64,000 bases of DNA from Eledone cirrhosa. Lineage: Eukaryota. Of this stretch, positions 326 to 54,703 are shown one piece after another; the first letter of the stretch is position 1, and each line of letters begins with the position of its first letter. The position numbers and the translations under genes are program-made. The stretch spans positions 368,652,001 to 368,716,000 of the forward strand of contig OZ024743.1 of assembly GCA_964016885.1 (NCBI GenBank), given 5' to 3'. Under the pieces are notes generated by a model that made no database searches, was not told where the DNA came from, and saw only the letters and a program-made list of their open reading frames with translations.

Positions 326-872
326 AGAACGCCCCAATCAATTTCTGGGGGAAATAATTATTTTTCCTCAGTATTTTCCTATCAATTAAATTACCTCCGA
401 ATATGCTGCAAAGATTTCTTTTTCTCTAAAAAAACAGAGGAGGGAGAGGGGACCCTTGGACCTGCTCCCCTCCTGGAGTTTACTTTACCTTCTAACCCCA
501 ACCCTAGCTCTAACCCAACCCTAACCATAACCCTAACTATAACCCTTACCCTAACTCTAATCCCAACCCTAACTCTAGGAAGGGTGAAAAGTCCGAAGGT
601 CCTCCCTTTTCGCTCTGTTTTCTGTGGAAAAAATCCTTTACAGCATGTTCGGAGGTAAGATTAGTTGGTAGCACATGAAAAAAAAAACTAGGGGTAAATG
701 GTAAAGAAACCTCCGGGGAAGGGGTAAAAAGTCCGAGGCTACCCCTTCTCTCCACTCCATTTTCCCAAGAAAAAATCTTTTGCCGCATATACGGAGATAA
801 ATTTAATTGATAGTTCCTGAAAAAAGATTAGGAAATTTTTTTATTTCCTACTGAAATCGATGGGGGTGTTCT
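326..872. mobile_element. Foldback/MITE-like element with long imperfect inverted repeats around a telomere-like core
   Basis: 326-490 (agaacgccccaatcaatttc...ctatcaattaaattacctccgaatatgc...) is an imperfect reverse complement of ~700-872 (...gcatatacggagataaatttaattgatag...gaaatcgatgggggtgttct). A further partial arm lies at ~578-670. Confidence 0.6.
491..577 (-). repeat. Degenerate interstitial telomeric repeat (CCCTAA)n
   Basis: A run of 6-mers: ccctaa/ccataa/ctctaa/cccaac. Confidence 0.8.
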
Positions 873-11717: not shown

Positions 11718-11741
11718 TATATATATATAAATATATATATA

Positions 11742-12580
11742 TAAATATCTTTAAGTCGTTTGGAAGCCTCGACAATGCAAATGGGTAAATCTCCGGGTAA
11801 CAAGGTCCGGTGGTGGAGAGAGAGAGATGTAAGTGGGTGTACGTTGAGATCGTGGTGTGTATAAGATGTGTGAGATGTGTAGAATGAAGGGAAGAGTATA
11901 AAGGATAAAATTAAAATAACAACACAAGAGAGAGTTACCTTGGGAGAGATTTAATAGTCCCTATATATTTCGGATTCACATCCATCAACTGGGGTTTTTT
12001 TCCGGGGTGGGGGAAAAGGTTATCTGTCGGACAAGTCCGGAACGCGTCCTTCGCTGTTTGTTGTTTTGAATATCTGAGGTATTCGGCAGAGCGCGCGTGC
12101 GCGTGAATGGATTGACAGCTAGCGCCATCCCACTCCCTCATTCGGCCGCTGACCTCTGTACGACCGACCCCATTTCACGCGCACGCGCGCTCTGCCGAAT
12201 ACCTCAGATATTCAAAACAACAAACAGCGAAGGACGCGTTCCGGACTTGTCCGACAGACAACCTTTTCCCCCACCCCGGAAAAAAACCCCAGTTGATGGA
12301 TGTGAATCCGAAATATATAGGGACTATTAAATCTCTCCCAAGGTAACTCTCTCTTGTGTTGTTATTTTAATTTTTCCTTTATACTCTTCCCTTCATTCTA
12401 CACATCTCACACATCTTATACACACCACGCATCTCAACGTACACCCACTTACATCTCTCTCTCCACCACCGGACCTTGTTACCCGGAGATTTACCCATTT
12501 GCATTGTCGAGGCTTCCAAACGACTTAAAGATATTTACTTATTGTTCCACAATGCTTCAAGCAAACTTCAATACTCTCTT
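11742..12580. mobile_element. PLE-like near-perfect palindrome (~370-bp arms, ~59-bp spacer, 43-bp unpaired tail) inside (TA)n
   Basis: 11742-12110 is the reverse complement of 12170-12537; 12538-12580 is unique; hammerhead-like motif at 12287-12322. Confidence 0.75.
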
Positions 12581-19182: not shown

Positions 19183-19712
19183 GTTAGGGTTGGAGTTAGG
19201 GTTAGAATTAGGGTTAGGGTTAGGGTTAGGGTTAGGTGGTAGAATTAGGGTTACAGCTCGAGTTAGGATTACTGTCAGGGTCAGAGTCAGAATCAAGGTT
19301 AGGGTTAGTGTTAGGGTCAGGGTTAAAGTTAATATTAAGGTTAGGATTAGGTTAAGGTTAAGTTTTGGGTTAGGATCAGGGTCAGTGTAAGGGTTAGGGA
19401 CAGCATTAAGATTAGATTAGTGTCAGTGTCAGGGTTGGTGTTATGTTTAGGTTCAGGTTCAGAGTCAGGGATGGGTTCAGGTTAGTGTCAGGGTCAGGAT
19501 CAGGATTCAGGTCAGGGTAAGGGTTAGCGTTAGGATTAGGCTTAGTTTTTAGGGTTAGGTTTTGTGAAGGGTTATACTTAAGGTTAGAGTTGAGGTTAGT
19601 TAGCGTTAAGGTTAAGTTTAGAGTAAAGTTTAGCTTTAGGGTTAGGGTTAGTGTTAATTTTAGGTTTATGATTAGGTTTAGTGTTATGTTTAGGGTTAGG
19701 ATTAGTGTTATG
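19183..19712 (+). repeat. Degenerate interstitial telomeric array (TTAGGG)n
   Basis: ~530 bp of ttaggg/tcaggg/ttagtg 6-mers kept largely in register. Confidence 0.88.
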
Positions 19713-19829
19713 GTGGAAGGCAGGTGGCTGAATTAAGTGCAATGATTGCAAGAGCTGGTACATTTATGTGCCAGCTTCAGCGTTCAGTCATCAGAAGGGA
19801 GGTAGGTTTAAAAACTGAACTCACTATCT

Positions 19830-20260: not shown

Positions 20261-21582
20261 GAGCAGCTAAATATATAAGAGACTCTTATCTGTGAGGGAT
20301 ACAGATGTGTATGTTTATCAAAGGCTGAGCTACTAAGCCATAACAGACATCATACTCATGGAAATAACACCTTTGGTTACCTCATACATGTTGATTTTAC
20401 ATGTGGCATCTGTATGAAAGGGTGTCACTCTGCAGGTGGACTAACACAGTCCCCACAAAACAACCACCACCAATTATGGATTAAAGCATTTCAGAGTGTA
20501 TGAATAGAAACAAAACATTTTGATTACTCATTAGTATATATATGAAAGGAAATTCAAAGACACACTGCACATATAGATACAAAAAGTTGCAAATGAAAGA
20601 ATCATTATAAGTGAAAATATTTATGAATGCAAAATTCTGAAGCTCAAATATAACCCAGGAAACTACTTGCTATGTGAGATAGGAAATTACATATGGAATT
20701 AATTGCAAAATTTTGAAAAATGAACGGAAGCTTTTGGTACAGAAAAGGCAAGAATATTTTACTGGGCTAAATGAGGCAGCAAGAAGAATTTGAAAGAGCA
20801 GTGACAAGTTATATATAGGCATTCATTTTAAACACTGGATAAGAATACAATCAAGTCAAATCAGATTCTAGCTAGAAGAATGCAATGGAGTGACAGTTGT
20901 TATATTTGACAGACGTTATAGTCTCACAGGTAGTTTCTTAGGAAATTAAATGTTCAAATATTTCAGGGAATGTAAATTGCTATTTCATATAAAATGTATA
21001 GTCTTCATGTTGACAGTGACTAAATCAGTTGAAGCAGGTAATTAACCAGTGTTTCTCAGGAGCCAGTTGTGTGACTATATTCCACTTTTCAAGTTAAACA
21101 GGAGGCAAAATTTTGTCCCATTTACATAGGGGGTGGATTTTTCTAATATAGTCCATTTAATGAAAAATGCTGTGCACATGAAGCGAAATTCATTTTGAGA
21201 AATGGTATAGACCAGATTAATTGAATTTAGTTTGAAGCTTTTTTTATAGTTACTTACCTTTACATTATCTATAAGATTTGTTAATTTATGGCTAAATTTG
21301 AGATTGCCTGCCCTTGATGAACTCTCCAGTATATTCTAAAAACTTCAAAATAATCTGTGGAGGTATCCATTTTTATTTTATATAACAGGCTGAATGAGTT
21401 GGAGGTGTATAGCCCAATGAAAATTAAGTAACTGTATATATCACTGTCATAACTAATTATACTTAACTCGTCCTATGGACTGAGTGCTTTTACCCTTGGA
21501 TATTTCTACCAAATTTTTACTACAATATATATATGTATATATATATATATAGGAGTAGTAACACAACAGTTAGTTCACCATA

Positions 21583-21623
21583 CCGAGAACAATTGTTTCA
21601 CCTTATGCGGATCTTCAGTTTGG
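21583..21623 (-). ncRNA. Hammerhead candidate in the PLE left repeat (stem I partly decayed)
   Basis: ccaaa-CTGAAGA-tccgcataaggt-GAAA-caattg-TT-ctcgg. Confidence 0.55.
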
Positions 21624-22916
21624 ACTGGTAATGGTTATACAGAACAGGAAGAACAACCGTATGAACATGCATGTGCAGAAACGGTCACTTCACCCAAGCG
21701 ATACAAAACTACGGGTGAAAGGTGTAAGGGAGATAACTGTGAATGTCTGGAATAAAATGTTCGAGTTGATTAGAAAATTAGAATATTGTTGTTGTTCAAC
21801 CCGGAGCTTTGTAGTTATTCAAGAGGTATTTCCAGACATGTGGACAACGTGAGAAGATTTCATTTCTTGAATTTAGGCAATCGCTATTGCGTAATCTCCT
21901 TAGAATATTTATCCTTTCTTCAATACACAGTCCACAAGACGGATTGCTTGGACTTAGTGATAGCTTTCCATTGGATGGAGTAGTCTATACCTGAGTCCTT
22001 GAGGGACATATGTGGTTCGCGAGCTTTGTGGATGATCGTTTGTCCGGGTGCCTAAAGGTCGACTGATCGTTCAGGAAGCGTTCCTTAAATCGGCCCTCTG
22101 CCATACCCACATAGGATTTGACCTCCTGTGGTTCATTTGGTTGGTTGGAGGTGACCCAGCGTCATAAACTACAGCAGGTGTGTTGCATTGCTGTTGAAGG
22201 GGACAAGCTTCAGGCTTTCGGCAAGAGCATCCTGGTGGGATGCTGTTCTTAGGACTATTGGTGATGTGGGCCTGCATATTCTTATCTCAGGAGTACCCTA
22301 GTTTCACTCTGCGTCTGTTAAAGATGGAGCGGTATTTGTGACCTATGGGAAAGTGTCTATCTAAGAGGGCTAAAAAAATGTTTCTACATTAGTTTTAACA
22401 TTAGTGAGAAGGGAGGAGAGAACCAGATAGTTTGTTTATTGTTATGATTTCGTTTCTTATTACTGTTGGTGTTAGCGGGGGAGTAAGTAATTGGTTGTGA
22501 GAAGCCGCTGTTAGATAACACCATGTTGTAGTAGGGGGCCGCTCTGTCAAAGATTGCTTTATTAGAGGAGAGGTTAGAGATTCTAGTACAAGGTTTCTAA
22601 AAACAGTAGGAGGGTGGCATGAGTCCTTGTGTATGTAATTAAGTTTTTCATTTAGACTGAAGGTATGTGTGCGGAGGTCTAAATTAATGTCTAAGAAATC
22701 TATGCTAGAGAGGTTGGTAGCTACCGTTATCCTAAGGATTTAGGATAACAACAACATTCTAATTTTCTAATCAACTTGAACATTTTATTCCGGACATTTG
22801 CAGTTATCTCCCTTACACCTTTCGCCCGTGGTTTTGTATCGCTTGGATGAAGCGACCGTTTCTGTGCATGCACGTTCATACGGTTGTTCTTCCTGTTCTG
22901 TATAACCATTACCAGT

Positions 22917-22957
22917 CTGAGCTGAAGATCCACATAAGGTGAAACAATTGTTCTCGG
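22917..22957 (+). ncRNA. Hammerhead candidate in the PLE right repeat
   Basis: ctgag-CTGAAGA-tccacataaggt-GAAA-caattg-TT-ctcgg; palindromic ACAATTGT stem III. Confidence 0.7.
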
Positions 22958-23272
22958 TATGGTGAACTAACTGTTGTGTTACTACTTCTACCAAACTTGT
23001 CCCATGGACTGAGTGCTCTACCACTATGGATATGACTTTTCAGTGTTCTACCTCTCTCTCTATATATATATCATACATATACATATCATATATAAATATC
23101 TCGGAACTAGCTATTGAAACAGCAAGAGCTCAGCCGTCGAGGTCCCCACCCTTTCATATATATATATAAAATTTAATATAGAAATGGCTTCTACAGAACT
23201 AGAAGTGTTTCATTAGAAAGAAGTGATCAGGAAAACCCTGATATATATATTAGATATATATTAGATATATAT

Positions 23273-26190: not shown

Positions 26191-26930
26191 CTGTTATCAA
26201 ACAAATGATATCGTTTACTTTCCTTATGTATATTTAGTTTTAAAAAAATTCATTATAATATATTTTACTCTACATGTCATAATATATTATATTATACCAT
26301 ATAATGTGATAGTGTCATGCTACACTATACTGTATATAACACCAAAATCATGTCACATATCTCAAGTGGGGACACTCTAACCAACAAGGGAAGCATCCAC
26401 ATAGTCATTCGACCTGCTAGAAATAACAGCTAAATCACCCTCGTGTCACATTCTACTCTTGGGAAAAGGAAAAGACATTGGATAATATTATCCTAGATGC
26501 AATATTCCTGAAAATAAAGAGAGAATAACATGATAATAGATATGTTCAATCAAGTCTGACTTGAAGTTAAGATTACAGCAAAGTACAATTTCTATAGTTT
26601 ACTAAATTTATTCAAAATTTATTCACAAATAAAGTTTTATCTTTATGTAAGGGTTACTATAGATTTTAAGAAGCTGTAAGAAAAATAAAATGAGGTTTTG
26701 ATAAATACTGACCAAAACTTTTCAGCTTGTAACTTTAGCAGGACTTCCTATGGGACAAAAATATTCTTCTCCTTGGAATTAATGCTCTGAAATAGCGATA
26801 TATATGTGAATATAGACATAGAATATTCGAAAATATTCTGTATGTTTATAATAAACATTTTGAAGACCTAATCGCTATAGAATAGAATACGTCACGTATT
26901 ACAATTAGATTCTCGATAAAAGCAAGGGAA

Positions 26931-26973
26931 GTAATCTACGCGTTTCATTCTTGTTAGAAATCTTCAGGACTAC
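26931..26973 (-). ncRNA. Minimal type I hammerhead ribozyme (also 27241-27283, 27551-27593, 27861-27903)
   Basis: Reverse complement of gtagtc-CTGAAGA-tttctaacaagaat-GAAA-CGCG-TA-gattac. Confidence 0.85.
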
Positions 26974-28293
26974 ATATCCAGTGCTTTTATCGAGAATGAC
27001 ACAGCTAGAGACTTATAGAATACTTAGCTGTGTACAGGAACTGGTTTGAAAGAGCGGTTGCCGGTCCGGCAGAAATTAGAAATTGGAATTAATGCTCTGA
27101 AATAGCGATATATATGTGAATATAGACATAGAATATTCGAAAATATTCTGTATGTTTATAATAAACATTTTGAAGACCTAATCGCTATAGAATAGAATAC
27201 GTCACGTATTACAATTAGATTCTCGATAAAAGCAAGGGAAGTAATCTACGCGTTTCATTCTTGTTAAAAATCTTCAGGACTACATATCCAGTGCTTTTAT
27301 CGAGAATGACACAGCTAGAGACTTATAGAATACTTAGCTGTGTACAGGAACTGGTTTGAAAGAGCGGTTGCCGGTCCGGCAGAAATTAGAAATTGGAATT
27401 AATGCTCTGAAATAGCGATATATATGTGAATATAGACATAGAATATTCGAAAATATTCTGTATGTTTATAATAAACATTTTGAAGACCTAATCGCTATAG
27501 AATAGAATACGTCACGTATTACAATTAGATTCTCGATAAAAGCAAGGGAAGTAATCTACGCGTTTCATTCTTGTTAGAAATCTTCAGGACTACATATCCA
27601 GTGCTTTTATCGAGAATGACACAGCTAGAGACTTATAGAATACTTAGCTGTGTACAGGAACTGGTTTGAAAGAGCGGTTGCCGGTCCGGCAGAAATTAGA
27701 AATTGGAATTAATGCTCTGAAATAGCGATATATATGTGAATATAGACATAGAATATTCGAAAATATTCTGTATGTTTATAATAAACATTTTGAAGACCTA
27801 ATCGCTATAGAATAGAATACGTCACGTATTACAATTAGATTCTCGATAAAAGCAAGGGAAGTAATCTACGCGTTTCATTCTTGTTAGAAATCTTCAGGAC
27901 TACATATCCAGTGCTTTTATCGAGAATGACACAGCTAGAGACTTATAGAATACTTAGCTGTGTACAGGAACTGGTTTGAAAGAGCGGTTGCCGGTCCGGC
28001 AGAAATTAGAAATTGGAATTAATGCTCTGAAATAGCGATATATATGTGAATATAGACATAGAATATTCGAAAATATTCTGTATGTTTATAATAAACATTT
28101 TGAAGACCTAAACATACAGAATATTTTCGAATATTCTATGTCTATATTCACATATATATCGCTATTTCAGAGCATTAATTCCAATTTCTAATTTCTGCCG
28201 GACCGGCAACCGCTCTTTCAAACCAGTTCCTGTACACAGCTAAGTATTCTATAAGTCTCTAGCTGTGTCATTCTCGATAAAAGCACTGGATAT

Positions 28294-28336
28294 GTAGTCC
28301 TGAAGATTTCTAACAAGAATGAAACGCGTAGATTAC
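28294..28336 (+). ncRNA. Minimal type I hammerhead ribozyme (also 28604-28646, 28914-28956)
   Basis: Stem I gtagtc/gattac; core CTGAAGA (28300-06); stem II t-TTCT aaca AGAA-t; GAAA; palindromic ACGCGT stem III; GUA cleavage after 28330. Confidence 0.88.
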
Positions 28337-29519
28337 TTCCCTTGCTTTTATCGAGAATCTAATTGTAATACGTGACGTATTCTATTCTATAGCGATTAGG
28401 TCTTCAAAATGTTTATTATAAACATACAGAATATTTTCGAATATTCTATGTCTATATTCACATATATATCGCTATTTCAGAGCATTAATTCCAATTTCTA
28501 ATTTCTGCCGGACCGGCAACCGCTCTTTCAAACCAGTTCCTGTACACAGCTAAGTATTCTATAAGTCTCTAGCTGTGTCATTCTCGATAAAAGCACTGGA
28601 TATGTAGTCCTGAAGATTTCTAACAAGAATGAAACGCGTAGATTACTTCCCTTGCTTTTATCGAGAATCTAATTGTAATACGTGACGTATTCTATTCTAT
28701 AGCGATTAGGTCTTCAAAATGTTTATTATAAACATACAGAATATTTTCGAATATTCTATGTCTATATTCACATATATATCGCTATTTCAGAGCATTAATT
28801 CCAATTTCTAATTTCTGCCGGACCGGCAACCGCTCTTTCAAACCAGTTCCTGTACACAGCTAAGTATTCTATAAGTCTCTAGCTGTGTCATTCTCGATAA
28901 AAGCACTGGATATGTAGTCCTGAAGATTTCTAACAAGAATGAAACGCGTAGATTACTTCCCTTGCTTTTATCGAGAATCTAATTGTAATACGTGACGTAT
29001 TCTATTCTATAGCGATTAGGTCTTCAAAATGTTTATTATAAACATACAGAATATTTTCGAATATTCTATGTCTATATTCTTCTCCTTGTTGTGTAAATAC
29101 AATGGATACTACATATATGTATATCATACTAATACAACACAACATCACATCAGACGTTCTCTCTGTTTTTGATTTGGGGTGAGGTGGGGGGGGGGGGGGT
29201 AATCTATCCCAATCAATGGGAAAACGCTTTCCATTCTCCAGAACGCTTTCCATTCTGGAGAGAACAGAATTCAATGTGTATTGTTTCGTATTTATTTTCA
29301 TGTAATGGGGTGGCAAACTGAGTGAGTGGTTTGGGATCACACAAGTTCTAGCTACACCACTACTAACACCTACCATCCTTCATCCCTCACTTTTGGTGAC
29401 ATGAACCTTAGCTCCACCATTACTAACATCCATCATCCATCACTCCTCATTTCTAACATCTCAACTGTGATGACAACAATGACCATCTAGTATGGTTTCT
29501 GTGGAAGCAGACTTACTGA

Positions 29520-39200: not shown

Positions 39201-39472
39201 AATACATGTATTTTGTGTAGAACAATTATATTAACTGAGTGATACAATTCGAGTGTATTAGTAGTACATAATTTATAAATCTGTTATAGATGAAAGATGA
39301 ATGAACCACAGCAAAGTTATACTGTGTATATGTGTATCTGTGTGTGTGTATCTGTTTATGTGTATGTATATGTATATGTCTGTGTGTTTGTGTGTGTGTT
39401 TTCTTTAATCCCATACAAGATTACTACAACCAATGTTGAGTATTGGCTATGTTCCCAGAATTATATAACTAT

Positions 39473-42400
39473 ATATTTGTTGTATTCAAGAGACCAGGTG
39501 GAGGGGTGGGTCTGCTAGATTCATTGAGGGTAAAAAACGATGTTATAAGCTTTTCTGGGTGGGAAACGACGATGGGCTGGGTGGAGTAGGAATCATGGTA
39601 GCAGAAAAGTGGGCAGATAAGATAATAGATGTAAATAGAGTGAACGACAGAATAATTAAAATAAGACTTGTCCTCAATAAAACTACGGTGACAGTAATAT
39701 CTGCGTACGCACCCCAATCCGGACTGCCCGGCACTATAAAAGACAGATTCTATGAGACACTGTTGCTAACTACCTCCCAAATATCTGACAGTGACTATAT
39801 AATTATTGCAGGCGACCTAAATGGTCACGTTGGACAACATTGTGACGGCTACGACGAAATCCATGGAGGCTATGGGTTTGGTACTAGAAATGAGGAAGGC
39901 TCCAGAATCCTGGAATTCTGTGATGCAAATAACCTAACTATCTGTAACACTAACTTCAAAAAACGTGACAATCACCTGATCACCTATAGATCAGGGGAAC
40001 ACACAAGCCAGGTAGATTATATCCTTACCAGAAGACGTGACAGAGTGTCTGTTGTAAACACTAAATCCCTCCCCCATGAAGAATGCACCTCCCAACATAG
40101 ACTGATAATTAGCGACCTCATAGTCAGGACGAGACGTACTCGACAGCAGAAGAGGACTATCCTCAGGAGGAAAATATGGAAGCTAAAGGACCCCACAGCC
40201 AGAAATAAATTTCAAAGCATATTACTTGATGCTTTCGACAGTAAGGAAGAGCATCTAGAATCGGACAATATAGAGGGACAGTGGGAATTTCTGAAAGCAA
40301 ACCTGCTGTTGGCGACAGACGAAGTCTGTGGCTGGAGCAGACCTGTAGGCAGGAGGAGAGTAACTTGGTGGTGGAACAGTAGGGTGGAGGGGTCAATTAA
40401 GGCCAAAAAGCAGGCTTGGAAAGTATGGCGGGATGGGGGAAGTAGAGTAGACTATCAAGTGGCCAGGAGGGAAGCTAGGAGAGAAGTGTACTTAGCAAGA
40501 AGGGAAGCTGAGGAAAGAAAGTTCAAGCATGTTCTACAACGCGATGACCAAAAACGTGAGGTGTTCAGGATTGCCAGGCAATGCGTCAAGGAAAACCGTG
40601 ATATTGTCGGGGAGAAGTGTGTACTTAACGATGATGGCATACTTGCCATCACCGACACTGATAAGAAGGTAGCTTGGAAGTGTCACTATGAAAGGCTACT
40701 AAATGAGGAGAATAAATGGGAGAAAGACAGTCTCCCCCATATCGACCCGATAGAGGGACCAGCAGTGTTAGTCGAGGGGAGTATAATAAGTAAGGCAATC
40801 AAGGATATGAAGACTGGTAAGGCGGCTGGGCCTTCGGAAATAGTTGCTGAGATGCTGAAGGCATCTGGCACGGTGGGACACACCATGGTCACCCGCATAG
40901 TTAACCAAGTCGTACAGAATGGGGTTGTTCCGAAGGACTGGCATAGCAGCATCATCGTTAACTGTTATAAGGGTAAAGGAGACGCCCTAGATAGGAGTAA
41001 CTATAGAGGCATTAAATTAATCGACCAGGTCATGAAGGTCACGGAAAAAGTAATAGCGCAACTAATCAGAGAGAGAATTGACCTAGATGAAATGCAGTTC
41101 GGGTTTGTGTCAGGCAAAAGCACCACAGACGCCCTTTTCATAGTACGACAACTACAGGAGAAGTACCTAGCTAAAGGTAGACCCCTTTACTTAGCTTTTG
41201 TCGACCTGGAGAAAGCCTTCGACAGAGTCCCCCGCTCCATTATCTGGTGGGCTCTTAGAAAACTAGGCGTTGACGAATGGCTTGTGAGGGCTATACAAGC
41301 CATGTATAAAGAAACAGTCAGCAAGGTTAGAATTAACAACGAATATAGTGAAGAGTTTAGCGTAAAAGTTGGCGTCCATCAGGGCTCTGTTCTCAGCCCC
41401 CTACTATTTATTATTGCCCTTCAGGCTATAACAGAGGAGTTCAAGACAGGCTGCCCATGGGAACTCCTATACGCAGACGACCTGACACTCATAGCGGAAT
41501 CAATGGCCGAGCTAGAGAAGAAATTCCAAACATGGAAGCACGGCCTAGAGTCAAAAGGACTTAAAATTAACCTGGCTAAGACCAAAGTTCTAGTTTGTAG
41601 GAAAGAAAACAAGGCGGCGGTCCCTTCTGGGAAATGGTCGTGCTCGGTGTGTAGGAAAGGCGTAGGTAGAAACTCCATTTTATGTCCTAAATGCAAAGTA
41701 TGGGTGCATAAAAGATGTAGTGGGATCACAGGTAAGCTAACTAAGAACATAGATTTTACATGTGGCCGGTGTTCTGGTGCAATAAGTAGCAGCAAGTGCC
41801 CACAAAATACTAGCTCTTTCAATTGCGCAGAGGGTTCTATAGAAATAGTGGACAGCTTCCGTTACCTGGGCGATAAAATCAGCAGTGGGGGAGGGTGCTC
41901 TGAAAGTACTGTAGCTAGAGTCAGAACTGGTTGGAAAAAGTTCAGAGAGCTTATACCACTATTAGCTGCTAAAGGGTTCTCCCTAAAAATGAAAGGCAGG
42001 TTGTACGATGCCTGCATACGAACAGCAATGTTGCATGGTAGTGAGACCTGGGCATTGTGTGCAGAGGATATACGCAGACTAGAGAGGAACGAAGCTTGCA
42101 TGCTCCGCTGGATGTGTAACAGTAATATACGTGAACGGCAAAGCATAAACGAACTAAGGAAAAAATTAGAGATAAGAGGGATCAGATGTTGTTTACTCGA
42201 GAGAAGGCTGCGTTGGTATGGACACGTGATGCGCATGAAAGTCGATAGCTGTATAACAAAGTGCAGGGCAATAAAGATAGACGGTAGCCACGGAATAGGC
42301 AGACCTAGAAAAACATGGGATGAGCTGATAAACTCCGACCTCACACACTTACACCTCTCCAAGACAATGTCACTGGACCGAGACCTTTGGCGGTACTCAG

Positions 42401-42796
42401 TAACAGAGAAGACCCGCCTTGCCAGTAGGCATCTCTAACAAAATACACCCCGTCCCGCCACCACCCCCACCCCATCCACACCATCCCGTTCTATGTAAAG
42501 TTATGTTGGTGCCGCGCCATCCAGGCCGAAACAAATGAGATCGTGTAGGTGTCACGACAAAAAAACACACAGTCCACGCTGTAATGTGGCCGTGTAGGCA
42601 ACACGGTAAAAACCTCCCAGACCCACACTGTAAATGTGGTTGGTGTTAGGAAGGGCATCCAACTGTAGAAAACCTGCCAGACAGTCCTATGCGAGCAAGA
42701 CAATCACTCTTGCCTCAAGTGGGACTACCCCCGTCCAAACCCATGCAAGCGTGGAACACGGACGTTAAACGTTGATGATGATGATGATGATGATGA
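39473..42796 (+). mobile_element. Young RTE-clade LINE, slightly 5'-truncated
   Basis: Homology starts in-frame at ICCIQETRWRG (39475); ~340-bp 3'UTR; (gat)n tail; possible TSD atataa[c/t]tat at 39463-72 and 42796-805. Confidence 0.95.
39559..42438 (+). CDS. RTE ORF2: APE endonuclease + reverse transcriptase with an internal PHD-like Cys/His finger
   Basis: 959 aa without stops: SAYAPQ, GDLNGHVG, VDYIL, SQHRL (APE); YRGIKL, QFGF, DLEKAFD, HQGSVLSP, YADD, FRYLG (RT). The start codon is nominal (GTG) because the true N-terminus is missing. Confidence 0.9.
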   Translation: MGNDDGLGGVGIMVAEKWADKIIDVNRVNDRIIKIRLVLNKTTVTVISAYAPQSGLPGTIKDRFYETLLLTTSQISDSDYIIIAGDLNGHVGQHCDGYDEIHGGYGFGTRNEEGSRILEFCDANNLTICNTNFKKRDNHLITYRSGEHTSQVDYILTRRRDRVSVVNTKSLPHEECTSQHRLIISDLIVRTRRTRQQKRTILRRKIWKLKDPTARNKFQSILLDAFDSKEEHLESDNIEGQWEFLKANLLLATDEVCGWSRPVGRRRVTWWWNSRVEGSIKAKKQAWKVWRDGGSRVDYQVARREARREVYLARREAEERKFKHVLQRDDQKREVFRIARQCVKENRDIVGEKCVLNDDGILAITDTDKKVAWKCHYERLLNEENKWEKDSLPHIDPIEGPAVLVEGSIISKAIKDMKTGKAAGPSEIVAEMLKASGTVGHTMVTRIVNQVVQNGVVPKDWHSSIIVNCYKGKGDALDRSNYRGIKLIDQVMKVTEKVIAQLIRERIDLDEMQFGFVSGKSTTDALFIVRQLQEKYLAKGRPLYLAFVDLEKAFDRVPRSIIWWALRKLGVDEWLVRAIQAMYKETVSKVRINNEYSEEFSVKVGVHQGSVLSPLLFIIALQAITEEFKTGCPWELLYADDLTLIAESMAELEKKFQTWKHGLESKGLKINLAKTKVLVCRKENKAAVPSGKWSCSVCRKGVGRNSILCPKCKVWVHKRCSGITGKLTKNIDFTCGRCSGAISSSKCPQNTSSFNCAEGSIEIVDSFRYLGDKISSGGGCSESTVARVRTGWKKFRELIPLLAAKGFSLKMKGRLYDACIRTAMLHGSETWALCAEDIRRLERNEACMLRWMCNSNIRERQSINELRKKLEIRGIRCCLLERRLRWYGHVMRMKVDSCITKCRAIKIDGSHGIGRPRKTWDELINSDLTHLHLSKTMSLDRDLWRYSVTEKTRLASRHL

Positions 42797-50097: not shown

Positions 50098-50283
50098 TGT
50101 TTCTACGTTAGGTACAAGGCCAGCAATTACCCAGTGTATTACTGGTACTTTATTTTATCGACCCCGTAAGGATGAAAGGCAAAGTTAACCTCGGCGGGAT
50201 TTGAACTCAGAATGGCAAGGGCCGTAACTCTATGCGTCAAAGCATGGCGTCCGACCCTCTACCAATACTGCCAATCCACCGCC
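50098..50283 (-). mobile_element. Young Meta/MESC-type tRNA SINE with a 19-bp TSD, inserted in the PLE ORF
   Basis: tagagcaggctataataat at 50079-97 and 50284-302; A box ggattggcagtattgg, B box gagttcaaatcc. Confidence 0.88.
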
Positions 50284-52623
50284 TAGAGCAGGCTATAATA
50301 ATGAAATTAAATATATTGATAATAAGGATGTGCCAATTAACCATAACTATAATTATAATTATAATAGGAAACCTTGCAATAACTCGAAAATCAAAAGAAG
50401 AAATAGAACTAGAAAATATATTATGGTTCGCTTCCCCTTTCTCATTAAGTATTAAAATTCCAATAGCTAAACTATTTTTTAAAGCTTTAGATAACTGTTT
50501 TCCTAAGACGCACAGGTATTACTCAATATTTAATAGACATACTATTAAATTATCATACTCTACCACTATGAATTTAGCGCAGAATATTAATAGAATTAAT
50601 AATAGAAACTTAAAACTTAACCAGAATAGTATTAATACCTCTAGCAATATCCAATATAATGATATAGCTCCCAATAATATAAATTCCGATAAATGTAATT
50701 GTAGAAATAAATATAACTGTCCTCTAAATAATAACTGTTTAGTTAAAAATATAGTATACAATTGTAATGTCAAAACCAAAGATAATTCCTTCAACTATGT
50801 CGGCTCTACTTCGACAGACTTCAAATCTCGTTTCAATAACCATAAATGTTCTTTTACGAATATTACCAAGAAATCTTCAACTTCTCTATCCAACTTATTA
50901 TGGAATTTAAAATCCAAGAATATAAAATACTCTTTATCTTGGAAAATTGTCTCCAAAGCACCATGCTACACAGGTTTATCCAAATTTTGTAATCTTTGTG
51001 TAGAGGAAATATTCTTTATACTAAAATCTAAGAACTCTGTTAATTTGCGAAATAATTTATTTAGTTCTTGTAAACATCGGTTAAACTCAACTTTTAGATA
51101 TATATATAAAATGTAATATATGTTCATTCTTCCTTACATAACGTTTTTCTCCATCCAAACACTTATATAGATTCTAACCTTCCTAAATATATAAAGTACA
51201 CTTATTAATTTTAATTTACTCCTTAAAACCTTTACTTTCTAATATGTATATTATCGCACTCTCCAGAAATTCTTTTATTAAAATATTTTGAAAAATTCTA
51301 AAAATTTCCTTCAAAACACCTCCTGGAAATTTCTGAAAGGTTCTTTTGAAAGATATGAATTTCCATTACCCTTACATATTCTAAACATGCTTAATACTTA
51401 TGTATTTTCTTATATATCCAACTATTTTTAATACTTATGTATTTTCATATATATCCAATCATTTATATTATTTTTATATATATGTGCAATAATTATGTCT
51501 TATATTTTAATCATATCTTAATTATATTTTAAGATGAATTTTTATAACTTCTTATAACTTTCGTAGTGATTTTTATCTATCTTTGAATCATTTGGGTTTT
51601 TTTTTAAATCCCTTTTTAACTCCCTTTAAACTTCCTTGTTGTTTTTATTATCTCAATCTTTATAGTCTTAATTTATAGTCGAAACTCTAAACTGTTTTAA
51701 TATATACTCCTATTTAAATAATTTTTCCTTTCTAAACTCTCGTAAATCTTCATAAATATTTGATGTTTAAGATTTGACTAAATATAATTTTGCTAAACTT
51801 ACTTTAATCAATTAAACTATACCTGGTTTTTTTCCAATGCAAAATATTATACATTCAAATAATTTATAACCTATAACCTAAAATAATCATCTAAACCTAT
51901 ATAGTATTAATACATCTTAATAAATTTTAAATACTTCTTTTTGTAATATATCTTATTGAAATTATTTAAATTTTAATTAAATTCTAATTAAATTTCTGGT
52001 TAAATTTTTAACTAAATATAACAATACTCTTTTGTAAAGTTTTCTTATCAATAATTTAACTGAATTTTTTAACTTTACCTTTATAAGTAATATAAACACA
52101 ACATAACGAATAATATGTTTACATTCTGAACACTCATCTATATAAATTTATTTCTTCTCTCGCCTCGCCCATCTTTCTCTTCCCCCCCCCCCTCTCACTA
52201 ATCCTTCTCCCTCTTTTTCCAATACTTTTTCAACATTCTTTTCTCTCTCCCGCACAATACTTTTTTCTTTCTCTCTCCATCTCAATTATTTGTTCTTTCC
52301 TTCACTCTCTCTCAATATTATATCTTTTCTCTTTTTCTTCTATCTCTCTTTTTCTCTCTCTATTCTCTTTATCTCTCTCCCTCTCAATTTTTTGTCTCTC
52401 TCCTTTTTACATCTATCTTGTCTCTCTCCCTATTACATCTATTTTCTTCCAACAGTTTAATTTAAATAAACCGTTGTTTTTTTTCAATTTTTCCGACACT
52501 CATTTGCATACTCACTCACAAATTTGTATCACCCTCAAGTATCTCCACTATCCACCGAATTTCAACCGTTGAGGTTGTCTTTTTTCCGGGTATGTCAATA
52601 TTTATTTATAAAACAAATCTGTA

Positions 52624-54342: not shown

Positions 54343-54395
54343 CAATAAAAATCTTTTGATGTTGTAGACGCTCTTGTTTTCTTTTTCATATATAT

Positions 54396-54458
<63 letters not shown>

Positions 54459-54623
54459 TAGATAGATAAATATACACGGTTGTGTATGATTGTGTATAGA
54501 AGATTATATTAATAAAAGAAATTCCAACTTTGTCTGATTTACTCGTTTTATTTACAATCCTTTAAAATTTATAATGGTATTAGAATGAAATAGTATGGTA
54601 GAATATTAAATGTTAAGTGTTAA

Positions 54624-54664
54624 TTGAACAAGTACTTTCATGCTTTCGCAATCTTCAGGTTCAA
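54624..54664 (-). ncRNA. Minimal hammerhead ribozyme candidate
   Basis: Minus strand ttgaac-CTGAAGA-t TGC gaaa GCA t-GAAA-GTAC-TT-gttcaa; perfect stem I, palindromic AGTACT stem III. Confidence 0.8.
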
Positions 54665-54703
54665 AATGTGTGGTGACAGTCAAGTTTGCAATTTTCAACT
54701 GTG

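What the first reader, a model, noticed from the sequence alone, without database searches (positions are those of the whole stretch)
26761..29088. Insertion architecture suggests double-primed reverse transcription around a circular template
Seen: the 15-bp direct repeat atattcttctccttg flanks the whole array (26761-75 and 29074-88). Both junctions share microhomology with the unit (ttg left, atattc right). The array flips orientation at ~28110 through a short taa overlap. Neither outer end falls at the ribozyme cleavage site: in RNA sense the right arm stops ~129 nt past it and the left arm ~164 nt past it, a 35-nt offset. Inference: both target strands primed internally on a circular or multimeric RNA and an RT ran 3-4 times around it. 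The 35-nt asymmetry resembles the unpaired tail of Penelope-type inverted insertions seen elsewhere in this window, while a 15-bp TSD would also fit a LINE APE endonuclease. The mobilising partner is therefore open.
Basis: partly seen in the sequence, partly recalled or inferred. Interest (0 to 1): 0.78.

Follow-up and report, generated by a model that had tools for sequence, protein, structure and literature searches.

The report
Ribozyme circle copied from both ends
This is a young family of small ribozyme-like repeats that almost always lands in the genome as two mirror-image arrays starting at two fixed points about 35 bases apart, which likely records a Penelope-type jumping-gene enzyme copying one RNA, probably a circle, from both ends of a cut chromosome.

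Summary
This is the family norm. Of 121 insertions read from this genome, 110 have two arms, all head-to-head. 106 pair one short end (mode +130) with one long end (mode +165); the offset mode is 35 nt. None of 220 outer ends lies at the cleavage site, inner ends are scattered, and targets are (AT)n. That is the Penelope-like element (PLE) 'tail' signature. LINE twin priming, fold-back and slow tandem growth each failed a test. Both arms share the same haplotype in 105 of 107 insertions, yet carry independent strand-biased singleton changes: two RT passes over one template. Rare variants fixed over up to 22 units favour a monomer circle; three mirrored cases allow multimer templates. Fixed variants are A>G-rich (10 vs 2), possibly ADAR editing. 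The partner PLE family was not found, and no reads or empty site were available.

The parts
26761..26775 (+). Left copy of the 15-bp target-site duplication; last 3 nt also match the unit
26773..28111 (-). Left arm: 4.3 units, hammerhead sense on the minus strand; outer (RNA 3') end at unit +164 (long start site), inner end at +66
26773..26807 (-). 35-nt tail (unit 130-164) present at the outer end of this arm only
   Evidence: (I1)
26931..26973 (-). Type I hammerhead motif, predicted cut at 26937
   Evidence: read from sequence
27241..27283 (-). Type I hammerhead motif, predicted cut at 27247; carries the single substitution at 27267 (stem II)
27551..27593 (-). Type I hammerhead motif, predicted cut at 27557
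27861..27903 (-). Type I hammerhead motif, predicted cut at 27867
28109..28111 (.). Inversion junction, 3-nt (taa) microhomology between the two truncated inner ends
28109..29079 (+). Right arm: 3.1 units, sense; inner end at +89, outer end at +129 (short start site)
28294..28336 (+). Type I hammerhead motif, predicted cut after 28330 (repeats with cuts after 28640 and 28950)
28409..28447 (+). Two hairpins (unit 79-95 and 98-117) just 5' of the short start site, conserved with compensatory changes in three related repeat families; role unknown
29074..29088 (+). Right copy of the 15-bp target-site duplication; first 6 nt also match the unit

Best explanation
A 310-nt hammerhead repeat (non-LTR retrozyme) inserts as head-to-head arrays with two fixed outer ends about 35 nt apart, likely because a Penelope-like RT/GIY-YIG protein cuts both target strands and primes both on the same sense RNA, which is probably a monomer circle in most events. 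SHOWN: orientation, the two end sites, scattered inner ends, (AT)n targets, 12-16-bp TSDs where readable, haplotype identity of the two arms, inner-junction microhomology. INFERRED: (1) units are transcribed, self-cleaved and ligated into circles; (2) a PLE protein, probably a dimer, makes a staggered cut leaving 3' overhangs of about 15 nt; (3) each 3'-OH starts cDNA at one of two adjacent internal sites (about +130 and +165), with a few nt of primer-template pairing shifting the exact start; (4) each RT runs on by strand displacement for a median of about 3 turns and stops at random; (5) host end-joining fuses the two cDNA ends through 1-5 nt of microhomology and fills the second strands. 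A minority of templates may be multimers, and a few long arrays later gained blocks of units.
For:: 110 of 110 two-armed insertions are head-to-head; 106 have one short plus one long end; offset 35 in 51 of 106; 216 of 220 outer ends fall in two zones and 0 at the cut site; inner ends near uniform (Rayleigh p 0.10, KS p 0.045) and independent (p 0.79); overlap of at least 2 nt in 44 of 75 flush or overlapping junctions vs 18% by chance. Census not chosen on ends: 17 of 20 C1 loci are head-to-head long+short, 3 single-armed. Genome-wide patterns: 1,260 short-end and 1,099 long-end sites vs 11 departures at the cut site; the 6 of those 11 inspected are all internal variants. 221 of 226 flanks are (AT)n. 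PLE features from papers: two adjacent internal RT starts equal the 30-40-nt tail, both strands cut and extended, AT targets, predicted dimer (PMC11167929); inverted 5'-truncated copy and tail at one end (PMC8557442). PLE-type families in this genome show the same two-end pattern. Same template: 105 of 107 arm pairs concordant vs 19.4 by permutation (max 31); 20 sample-private variants fixed in both arms, none fixed in one arm only. Independent passes: 93 unmirrored variants where both arms overlap, T>C 14 vs A>G 3 in RNA sense (p 0.026). Monomer bottleneck: 36 haplotypes, rare variants fixed over up to 22 units; 1,017 cut-site crossings without a singleton change nearby; singletons recur between loci no more than chance; circular fold z -4.4.
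Against: No autonomous PLE sharing the end module was found. Tails of PLE-type families here range from about 38 to 92 nt, and none was tied to this retrozyme. Three of 105 insertions (J142 = L142+L160, L109, L069) carry variants mirrored in both arms in outer-end register (chance about 0.03), which a pure monomer circle does not predict. L096 and J142 are haplotype mosaics. 'Private' variants may come from unsampled parents. 11 of 121 calls are single-armed (one cut off by the fetch). No RNA, no reads, no empty allele: the flank is single-copy in the assembly. In PMC11167929 unprocessed linear RNA was the main substrate in vitro and RT started without homology to the DNA. 71 of the 121 insertions were chosen on the short-end pattern, and the sample is mostly from C1-C4.
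Confidence: 0.68

Rival explanations
1. Same PLE double priming, but the usual template is a linear, uncleaved multimer transcribed through a parent array rather than a circle.
For: Mirrored variants in 3 of 105 insertions, including a two-haplotype switch at the same unit in both arms of J142. [quoted passage not shown] Minimal hammerheads cleave poorly (PMC4209133 passages).
Against: Linear copying cannot lengthen an arm or fix a new variant over 17-22 units. Only 3 insertions are mirrored against 93 unmirrored variants, and singletons do not recur between loci. The mirrored cases could also be gene conversion or a nested insertion into the unit's own ATATATAT (not tested).
Confidence: 0.2
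2. A short PLE-derived piece inserts once and the arrays grow later by unequal crossover (the satellite model discussed in bioRxiv 10.64898/2026.07.22.740005).
For: 15 variants are repeated in several units of one arm, in 8 long arrays, so block duplication does occur.
Against: In arms of 3 or more units only 18 of 143 variants are multi-unit, against about 80 expected under stepwise growth. No variant is fixed in one arm only. Rapid growth right after insertion is not excluded.
Confidence: 0.07
3. A LINE with an APE endonuclease (such as the RT ORF at 39469-42438) mobilises the RNA and makes the inversion by L1-style twin priming.
For: 15-bp TSD; an intact 989-aa APE+RT ORF lies in the window; L1 inversions are ascribed to twin priming (PMC9148063 passage).
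Against: [quoted passage not shown] The 3' end of one arm is not next to the 5' end of the other (24 of 100 within 20 nt, 24.7 expected). No tail repeat, and no ends at the processed RNA terminus. Inversion is the rule (110 of 121).
Confidence: 0.03
4. The inversion is a cDNA or DNA fold-back (self-priming), or an assembly or library artefact.
For: No read support could be obtained. A few junctions have long palindromic overlaps (15-27 nt in 5 of 100). Self-priming was proposed for PLE inverted repeats (PMC3846280 passage).
Against: Either arm can be longer (53 of 106). Inner ends are independent. Outer ends differ by a fixed tail. Arms carry separate strand-biased changes. Never tail-to-tail. 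TSDs flank the whole structure.
Confidence: 0.02

Closest known systems
Metazoan non-LTR retrozymes (Cervera and de la Pena 2020, PMC7229834; Li, Clavereau and Pollet 2026, bioRxiv 10.64898/2026.07.22.740005)
   Same: 150-450-nt tandem unit, one type I hammerhead per unit, low GC, no ORF, TSD longer than 4 bp, PLEs in the same genome; a circle template and a PLE partner were proposed there.
   Different: In the text I read, neither paper describes head-to-head double arms, two fixed internal ends, a tail, (AT)n targeting or shared haplotypes across arms. Their PLE link rests on co-occurrence and pLTR similarity; here it rests on the insertion footprint. Circles were shown by northern there and are untested here.
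EN+ Penelope-like elements (Poseidon of Anolis, PMC11167929; Naiad/Neptune/Hydra, PMC8557442; Adineta Penelope, PMC3846280)
   Same: Inverted 5'-truncated second copy, 30-40-nt tail at one end, two adjacent internal RT starts, AT or microsatellite targets, TSDs of about 8-10 bp in Adineta, hammerhead upstream of the starts.
   Different: No RT/GIY-YIG ORF; units are short and repeated up to about 23 times per arm; short primer-template microhomology is seen here, whereas the anole RT started without homology.
Non-autonomous Chlamys elements such as MRC1 (PMC8557442 passage)
   Same: [quoted passage not shown]
   Different: Those resemble their autonomous partner at the 3' end and mostly lack hammerheads; here no partner sharing the end was found.
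L1 twin priming (Ostertag and Kazazian 2001, known only through a review passage in PMC9148063)
   Same: Both target strands prime on one RNA and give an inversion inside one TSD.
   Different: L1 has one fixed poly(A) start and one variable internal start, and inversion is occasional; here both starts are fixed and inversion is the rule.

Membership tests
non-LTR retrozyme | Tandem 150-450-bp unit without ORF, GC under 50% | tested here: met
   310 nt, 34% GC; no ORF of 120 aa or more inside the array
non-LTR retrozyme | Type I hammerhead motif in every unit | tested here: met
   Core, stem I, stem II and palindromic stem III in all 7 full copies; below Rfam gathering score
non-LTR retrozyme | Self-cleavage activity | not testable with these tools
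   needs in vitro transcription
non-LTR retrozyme | Expressed as circular RNA | not tested
non-LTR retrozyme | Dispersed copies with TSD longer than 4 bp | tested here: met
   121 dispersed insertions; TSD 15 bp (window), 16 bp (L041), candidates of 12-15 bp in interrupted (AT)n
PLE-mobilised insertion | Inverted 5'-truncated second copy, head-to-head | tested here: met
   110 of 110 two-armed insertions
PLE-mobilised insertion | 30-40-nt tail at one end (two adjacent internal RT starts) | tested here: met
   106 of 110 long+short; offset mode 35, range 20-44 with AT ambiguity
PLE-mobilised insertion | AT-rich or microsatellite target | tested here: met
   221 of 226 flanks
PLE-mobilised insertion | End region shared with an autonomous PLE pLTR | tested here: inconclusive
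   No end-module match next to a PLE ORF in 55 PLE loci or in the 1.1 Mb held before them; the hammerhead core alone is shared with a PLE-type end that has a 68-nt tail and no linked ORF; the search covered a small part of the genome's PLEs
autonomous PLE | RT plus GIY-YIG ORF | tested here: not met
   none in the array
LINE-mobilised (APE) SINE or twin-primed insertion | One fixed RNA 3' terminus or tail and a variable second primer site adjoining the other arm's 5' end | tested here: not met

The most novel reading that the evidence does not exclude
Each insertion is a genomic recording of a PLE dimer rolling two reverse transcriptases around one ADAR-edited ribozyme circle. That would show in vivo that PLE inverted repeats and tails come from double internal priming of a single sense RNA, and that retrozymes evolve mainly at the RNA-circle stage, with A-to-I edits written back into the germline across whole arrays.
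Probability: 0.35. Interest if true: 0.85.

Novelty: new variant of a known kind. Interest (0 to 1): 0.63.

Why it matters
How PLEs make their inverted, tailed insertions, and which enzyme moves animal retrozymes, are both stated as open in the papers read (PMC8557442, PMC7229834, bioRxiv 10.64898/2026.07.22.740005). This family gives over a thousand near-identical, multi-unit insertions whose internal variants act as barcodes. They argue against self-priming and for two RT passes on one template, and they fix the exact RNA sites (+130, +165) for an in vitro test. A 310-nt RNA that directs two-sided target-primed integration is also a compact substrate for studying PLE enzymes.

Tried and rejected
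Reads, long reads and RNA evidence were not available, so read validation, expression and empty alleles stay open. Empty site or second haplotype in the assembly: the left flank has only its self hit.

Partner hunt, all without a linked partner: relatives of the shared motif (more retrozymes); Hydra-like PLEs (tail about 90 nt, no similarity); 30 + 20 of the 150 listed GIY-YIG loci; a sixth hairpin-sharing family (no PLE ORF attached). My note tied the shared hammerhead to the L210 Neptune ORF; one search does not support that. A Neptune family first seemed to match the 130/165 geometry, but its tail is about 50 nt.

'Editing during reverse transcription' for L096 was not adopted: a switch between two known haplotypes explains it as well. 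A two-hairpin signal as the RT start determinant is unproven: family 3 keeps the hairpins with different ends, and the family-1 MFE prefers another stem. One search used a mis-registered structure and is superseded; one search was a script error; the Pfam accession tried is not in the library. Junction inserts in L091 and L118 gave no Rfam match. The earlier-findings look-up was empty.

Full report
Observation. The window holds two arrays of one 310-nt unit. Numbering the unit from the predicted hammerhead cut (GUA^), the left arm 26773-28111 is antisense and runs from unit 66 to 164 over 1,339 nt. The right arm 28109-29079 is sense and runs from 89 to 129 over 971 nt. They overlap by taa. The 15-mer ATATTCTTCTCCTTG occurs only at 26761 and 29074 in the window and overlaps the unit by 3 and 6 nt. 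The offset is 35 nt. The hammerhead is read from the sequence; Rfam finds nothing at gathering score and only weak HH9 matches in sister copies. Cleavage is untested. With 3' overhangs from a staggered cut, each target strand extended as cDNA of the sense RNA gives exactly this orientation (inference).

The family. The window lies in a 3.0-Gb genome whose host I did not determine. I read 121 insertions: the window; 37 from the 39 best-scored of 373 candidates; 12 completing a list of C1 loci taken in contig order from a hammerhead-core pattern; and 71 from the first 100 of 1,260 hits of a short-end pattern. The last set fixes the short end by selection but leaves the other end free; 110 have two arms, all minus-then-plus (head-to-head); 11 were called single-armed, one of them (L164) only because the fetch ended. 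106 of 110 pair a short end (127-139, mode 130) with a long end (159-172, mode 165). The four others are an N gap (L047), an arm off the fetched stretch (L169), a neighbouring relative confusing the script (L166, long+short on inspection) and one true exception (L051). The offset is 35 in 51 of 106; the spread partly reflects ATATATAT at unit 132-139, which matches the target. In the census not chosen on ends, 17 of 20 are head-to-head long+short and 3 single. Genome-wide, 1,099 sites carry the +165 end and 1,260 the +130 pattern (some of the latter are internal variants). Only 11 sites depart from the unit at the cut; the 6 inspected are internal. By extrapolation there are roughly 1,500-2,000 insertions. 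Inner ends are close to uniform (Rayleigh p 0.10, KS p 0.045) and independent of each other; either arm can be longer (53 of 106); median arms are 945 and 986 nt, maximum 7,109. Overlaps of 2 nt or more occur in 44 of 75 flush or overlapping junctions against 18% by chance; 25 of 100 simple junctions carry an insert instead. 221 of 226 flanks are (AT)n. TSDs are clear at two non-microsatellite targets (15 and 16 bp) and plausible at 12-15 bp in interrupted (AT)n. The window copy is unusual only in its target.

Which machinery. Frangieh et al. 2024 (PMC11167929; I read parts 1-2 of 4, not the supplements) report that a Poseidon PLE cuts and extends both strands, prefers AT-rich DNA, is predicted to dimerise, and starts RT at two adjacent internal sites whose spacing is the genomic 30-40-nt tail. 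Craig et al. 2021 (PMC8557442, passages) describe the inverted 5'-truncated copy, the tail at one end and (TA)n bias. Every one of these marks is present. PLE-type families in this genome show two-ended patterns of their own, with tails of about 38 to 92 nt. Older relatives of this retrozyme (316-nt unit, 75% identical over unit 69-212, different hammerhead) end at the homologous two sites. A LINE partner fails: both starts are fixed, no end is at the processed terminus, and one arm's 3' end does not adjoin the other's 5' end (24 of 100 vs 24.7 expected). Twin priming is known to me through a review passage (PMC9148063) and recall. Fold-back or self-priming, proposed in PMC3846280 (passages), fails on arm lengths, independent inner ends and separate mutations. 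The autonomous partner was not found; only a small part of the genome's PLEs was examined.

One template, two passes. Against the commonest unit there are 34 fixed variants forming 36 haplotypes (L047 left out). The arms agree in 105 of 107 insertions, against 19.4 for shuffled pairs (max 31 of 5,000); in the third set 64 of 66 against 9.1. Twenty variants seen in one insertion only are fixed in both arms; none is fixed in one arm only. The window itself has 157A in all 8 units. Where both arms cover the same register, 93 variants are unmirrored and their singletons lean T>C 14 to A>G 3 in RNA sense (p 0.026). Because arms lie on both genomic strands, this points to errors made separately on the RNA, though numbers are small. 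Slow growth by unequal crossover predicts about 80 multi-unit variants among 143; 18 are seen, in a few long arrays, so the longest arms overstate the number of RT turns.

Circle or multimer. For a circle: rare variants fixed over 17-22 units need a monomer bottleneck; linear copying cannot lengthen arms; singletons recur between loci no more than chance (123 distinct of 135, null 120); 1,017 cut-site crossings have no singleton within 5 nt, which argues against sloppy jumping between linear monomers; the circle folds well (z -4.4 against 60 shuffles). Against: J142 switches between two known haplotypes at the same unit in both arms, and L109 and L069 mirror a single-unit change (L069 was dropped by a 50% filter and is seen). 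Two more cross-arm sharings (L165, J089b) are out of register. A multimeric template explains the mirrored cases most simply, and they then show both primings in the same unit of one molecule; gene conversion or nested insertion are untested alternatives. Sample-private variants may also sit in unsampled parents.

A>G excess. Distinct fixed substitutions include 10 A>G and 2 T>C (p 0.016), the reverse of singletons (7 vs 24; Fisher p 0.0004); private ones alone give 6 vs 2 (p 0.15). Positions 20, 259 and 276 recur on different backgrounds, have a 5' U and lie in predicted helices; 8 of 10 sites are paired, against 56 of 93 A's. ADAR editing of the RNA fits (neighbour preferences recalled, not from a call); selection for G-U-tolerant pairs and recombination between templates are alternatives. 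Cervera and de la Pena raised RNA editing as one possibility for circle heterogeneity (PMC7229834, section 14).

Cis elements. Two hairpins 5' of the short site are kept across four families (7 hand-picked copies): 87.8% of cells pair, 6 pairs with double changes, 1 of 500 shuffles as high, a control that ignores relatedness. Their role is open.

Comparison and novelty. The element is a non-LTR retrozyme by every feature I could test. The circle model and a PLE partner were proposed in PMC7229834 (passages, sections 14 and 17; supplementary Figure S9 not seen) and supported by co-occurrence and pLTR similarity in bioRxiv 10.64898/2026.07.22.740005 (parts 1-3 of 5 and a word search: no use of tail, junction or orientation; supplements not seen and could bear on this). 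Eight library searches found no paper describing the tailed head-to-head footprint, arm haplotype sharing or an A>G signature in retrozymes; subscription journals are mostly not covered. PMC4209133 was read as passages only.

Verdict. Real, family-wide, and very likely PLE-made (about 0.9 for that step alone). A circle as the usual template is likely but unproven; confidence in the full model is 0.68. New variant of a known kind; interest 0.63.

Noticed in passing
window 11737-12580: Head-to-head element between (TA)n runs with a variant hammerhead-like motif and a tail of about 38-40 nt, the closest tail length to the retrozyme's; no ORF linked.
   Followed up: partly
window 21550-23050: Truncated PLE fragment with inverted arms, a hammerhead motif on each arm and a tail of about 70 nt.
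   Followed up: partly
window 50205-51116: C-terminal PLE ORF piece with a weak GIY-YIG hit (E 7e-4, under cut-off); very abundant family (73,130 first-look candidates); family tail about 90 nt. 'Hydra-like' is my recalled label.
   Followed up: yes
window 39469-42438: Uninterrupted 989-aa LINE ORF with endonuclease, RT and PHD-like domains; broken copies elsewhere in the window.
   Followed up: partly
window 54388-54670 (-): pLTR end with hammerhead of a Neptune-type family (label recalled) whose ORFs are in L213, L214, L217, L223, L225; tail about 50 nt.
   Followed up: partly
L063:6250-7160; L120-L139; L181: Older sister retrozyme families (316-324-nt units) with another hammerhead but the same end module and end sites; 3,447 motif hits genome-wide.
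   Followed up: partly
L036:1300-2200, L044, L048, L075:1500-1850, L231-L249; window 49750: Further head-to-head repeat families sharing the first hairpin; several carry ATGCAAAT and a TATA-like box upstream, recalling snRNA-type promoters (motif meaning recalled, untested).
   Followed up: partly
L080, L085, L111, L113, L117, L156: 311-nt units with one extra base 2-3 nt after the cut site, fixed in all units; could mark an error at circle ligation.
   Followed up: no
L091:1599-1870; L118:2530-2583: 272-nt and 54-nt GC-rich foreign sequence captured at the inversion junction; no Rfam match; source unknown.
   Followed up: partly
L066, L088, L099, L166, L215, L219, L226: Abundant PLE-type end whose hammerhead core is nearly identical to this retrozyme's, with a 68-nt tail; possible donor of the ribozyme; ORF not linked.
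   Followed up: partly
L210 (- strand, 938 aa); L212 (1,096 aa): Long open PLE frames with RT, cysteine linker and C-terminal GIY-YIG; candidates for biochemistry.
   Followed up: no
window 492-577 and 19183-19714: Degenerate TTAGGG-like hexamer arrays inside a long contig.
   Followed up: no
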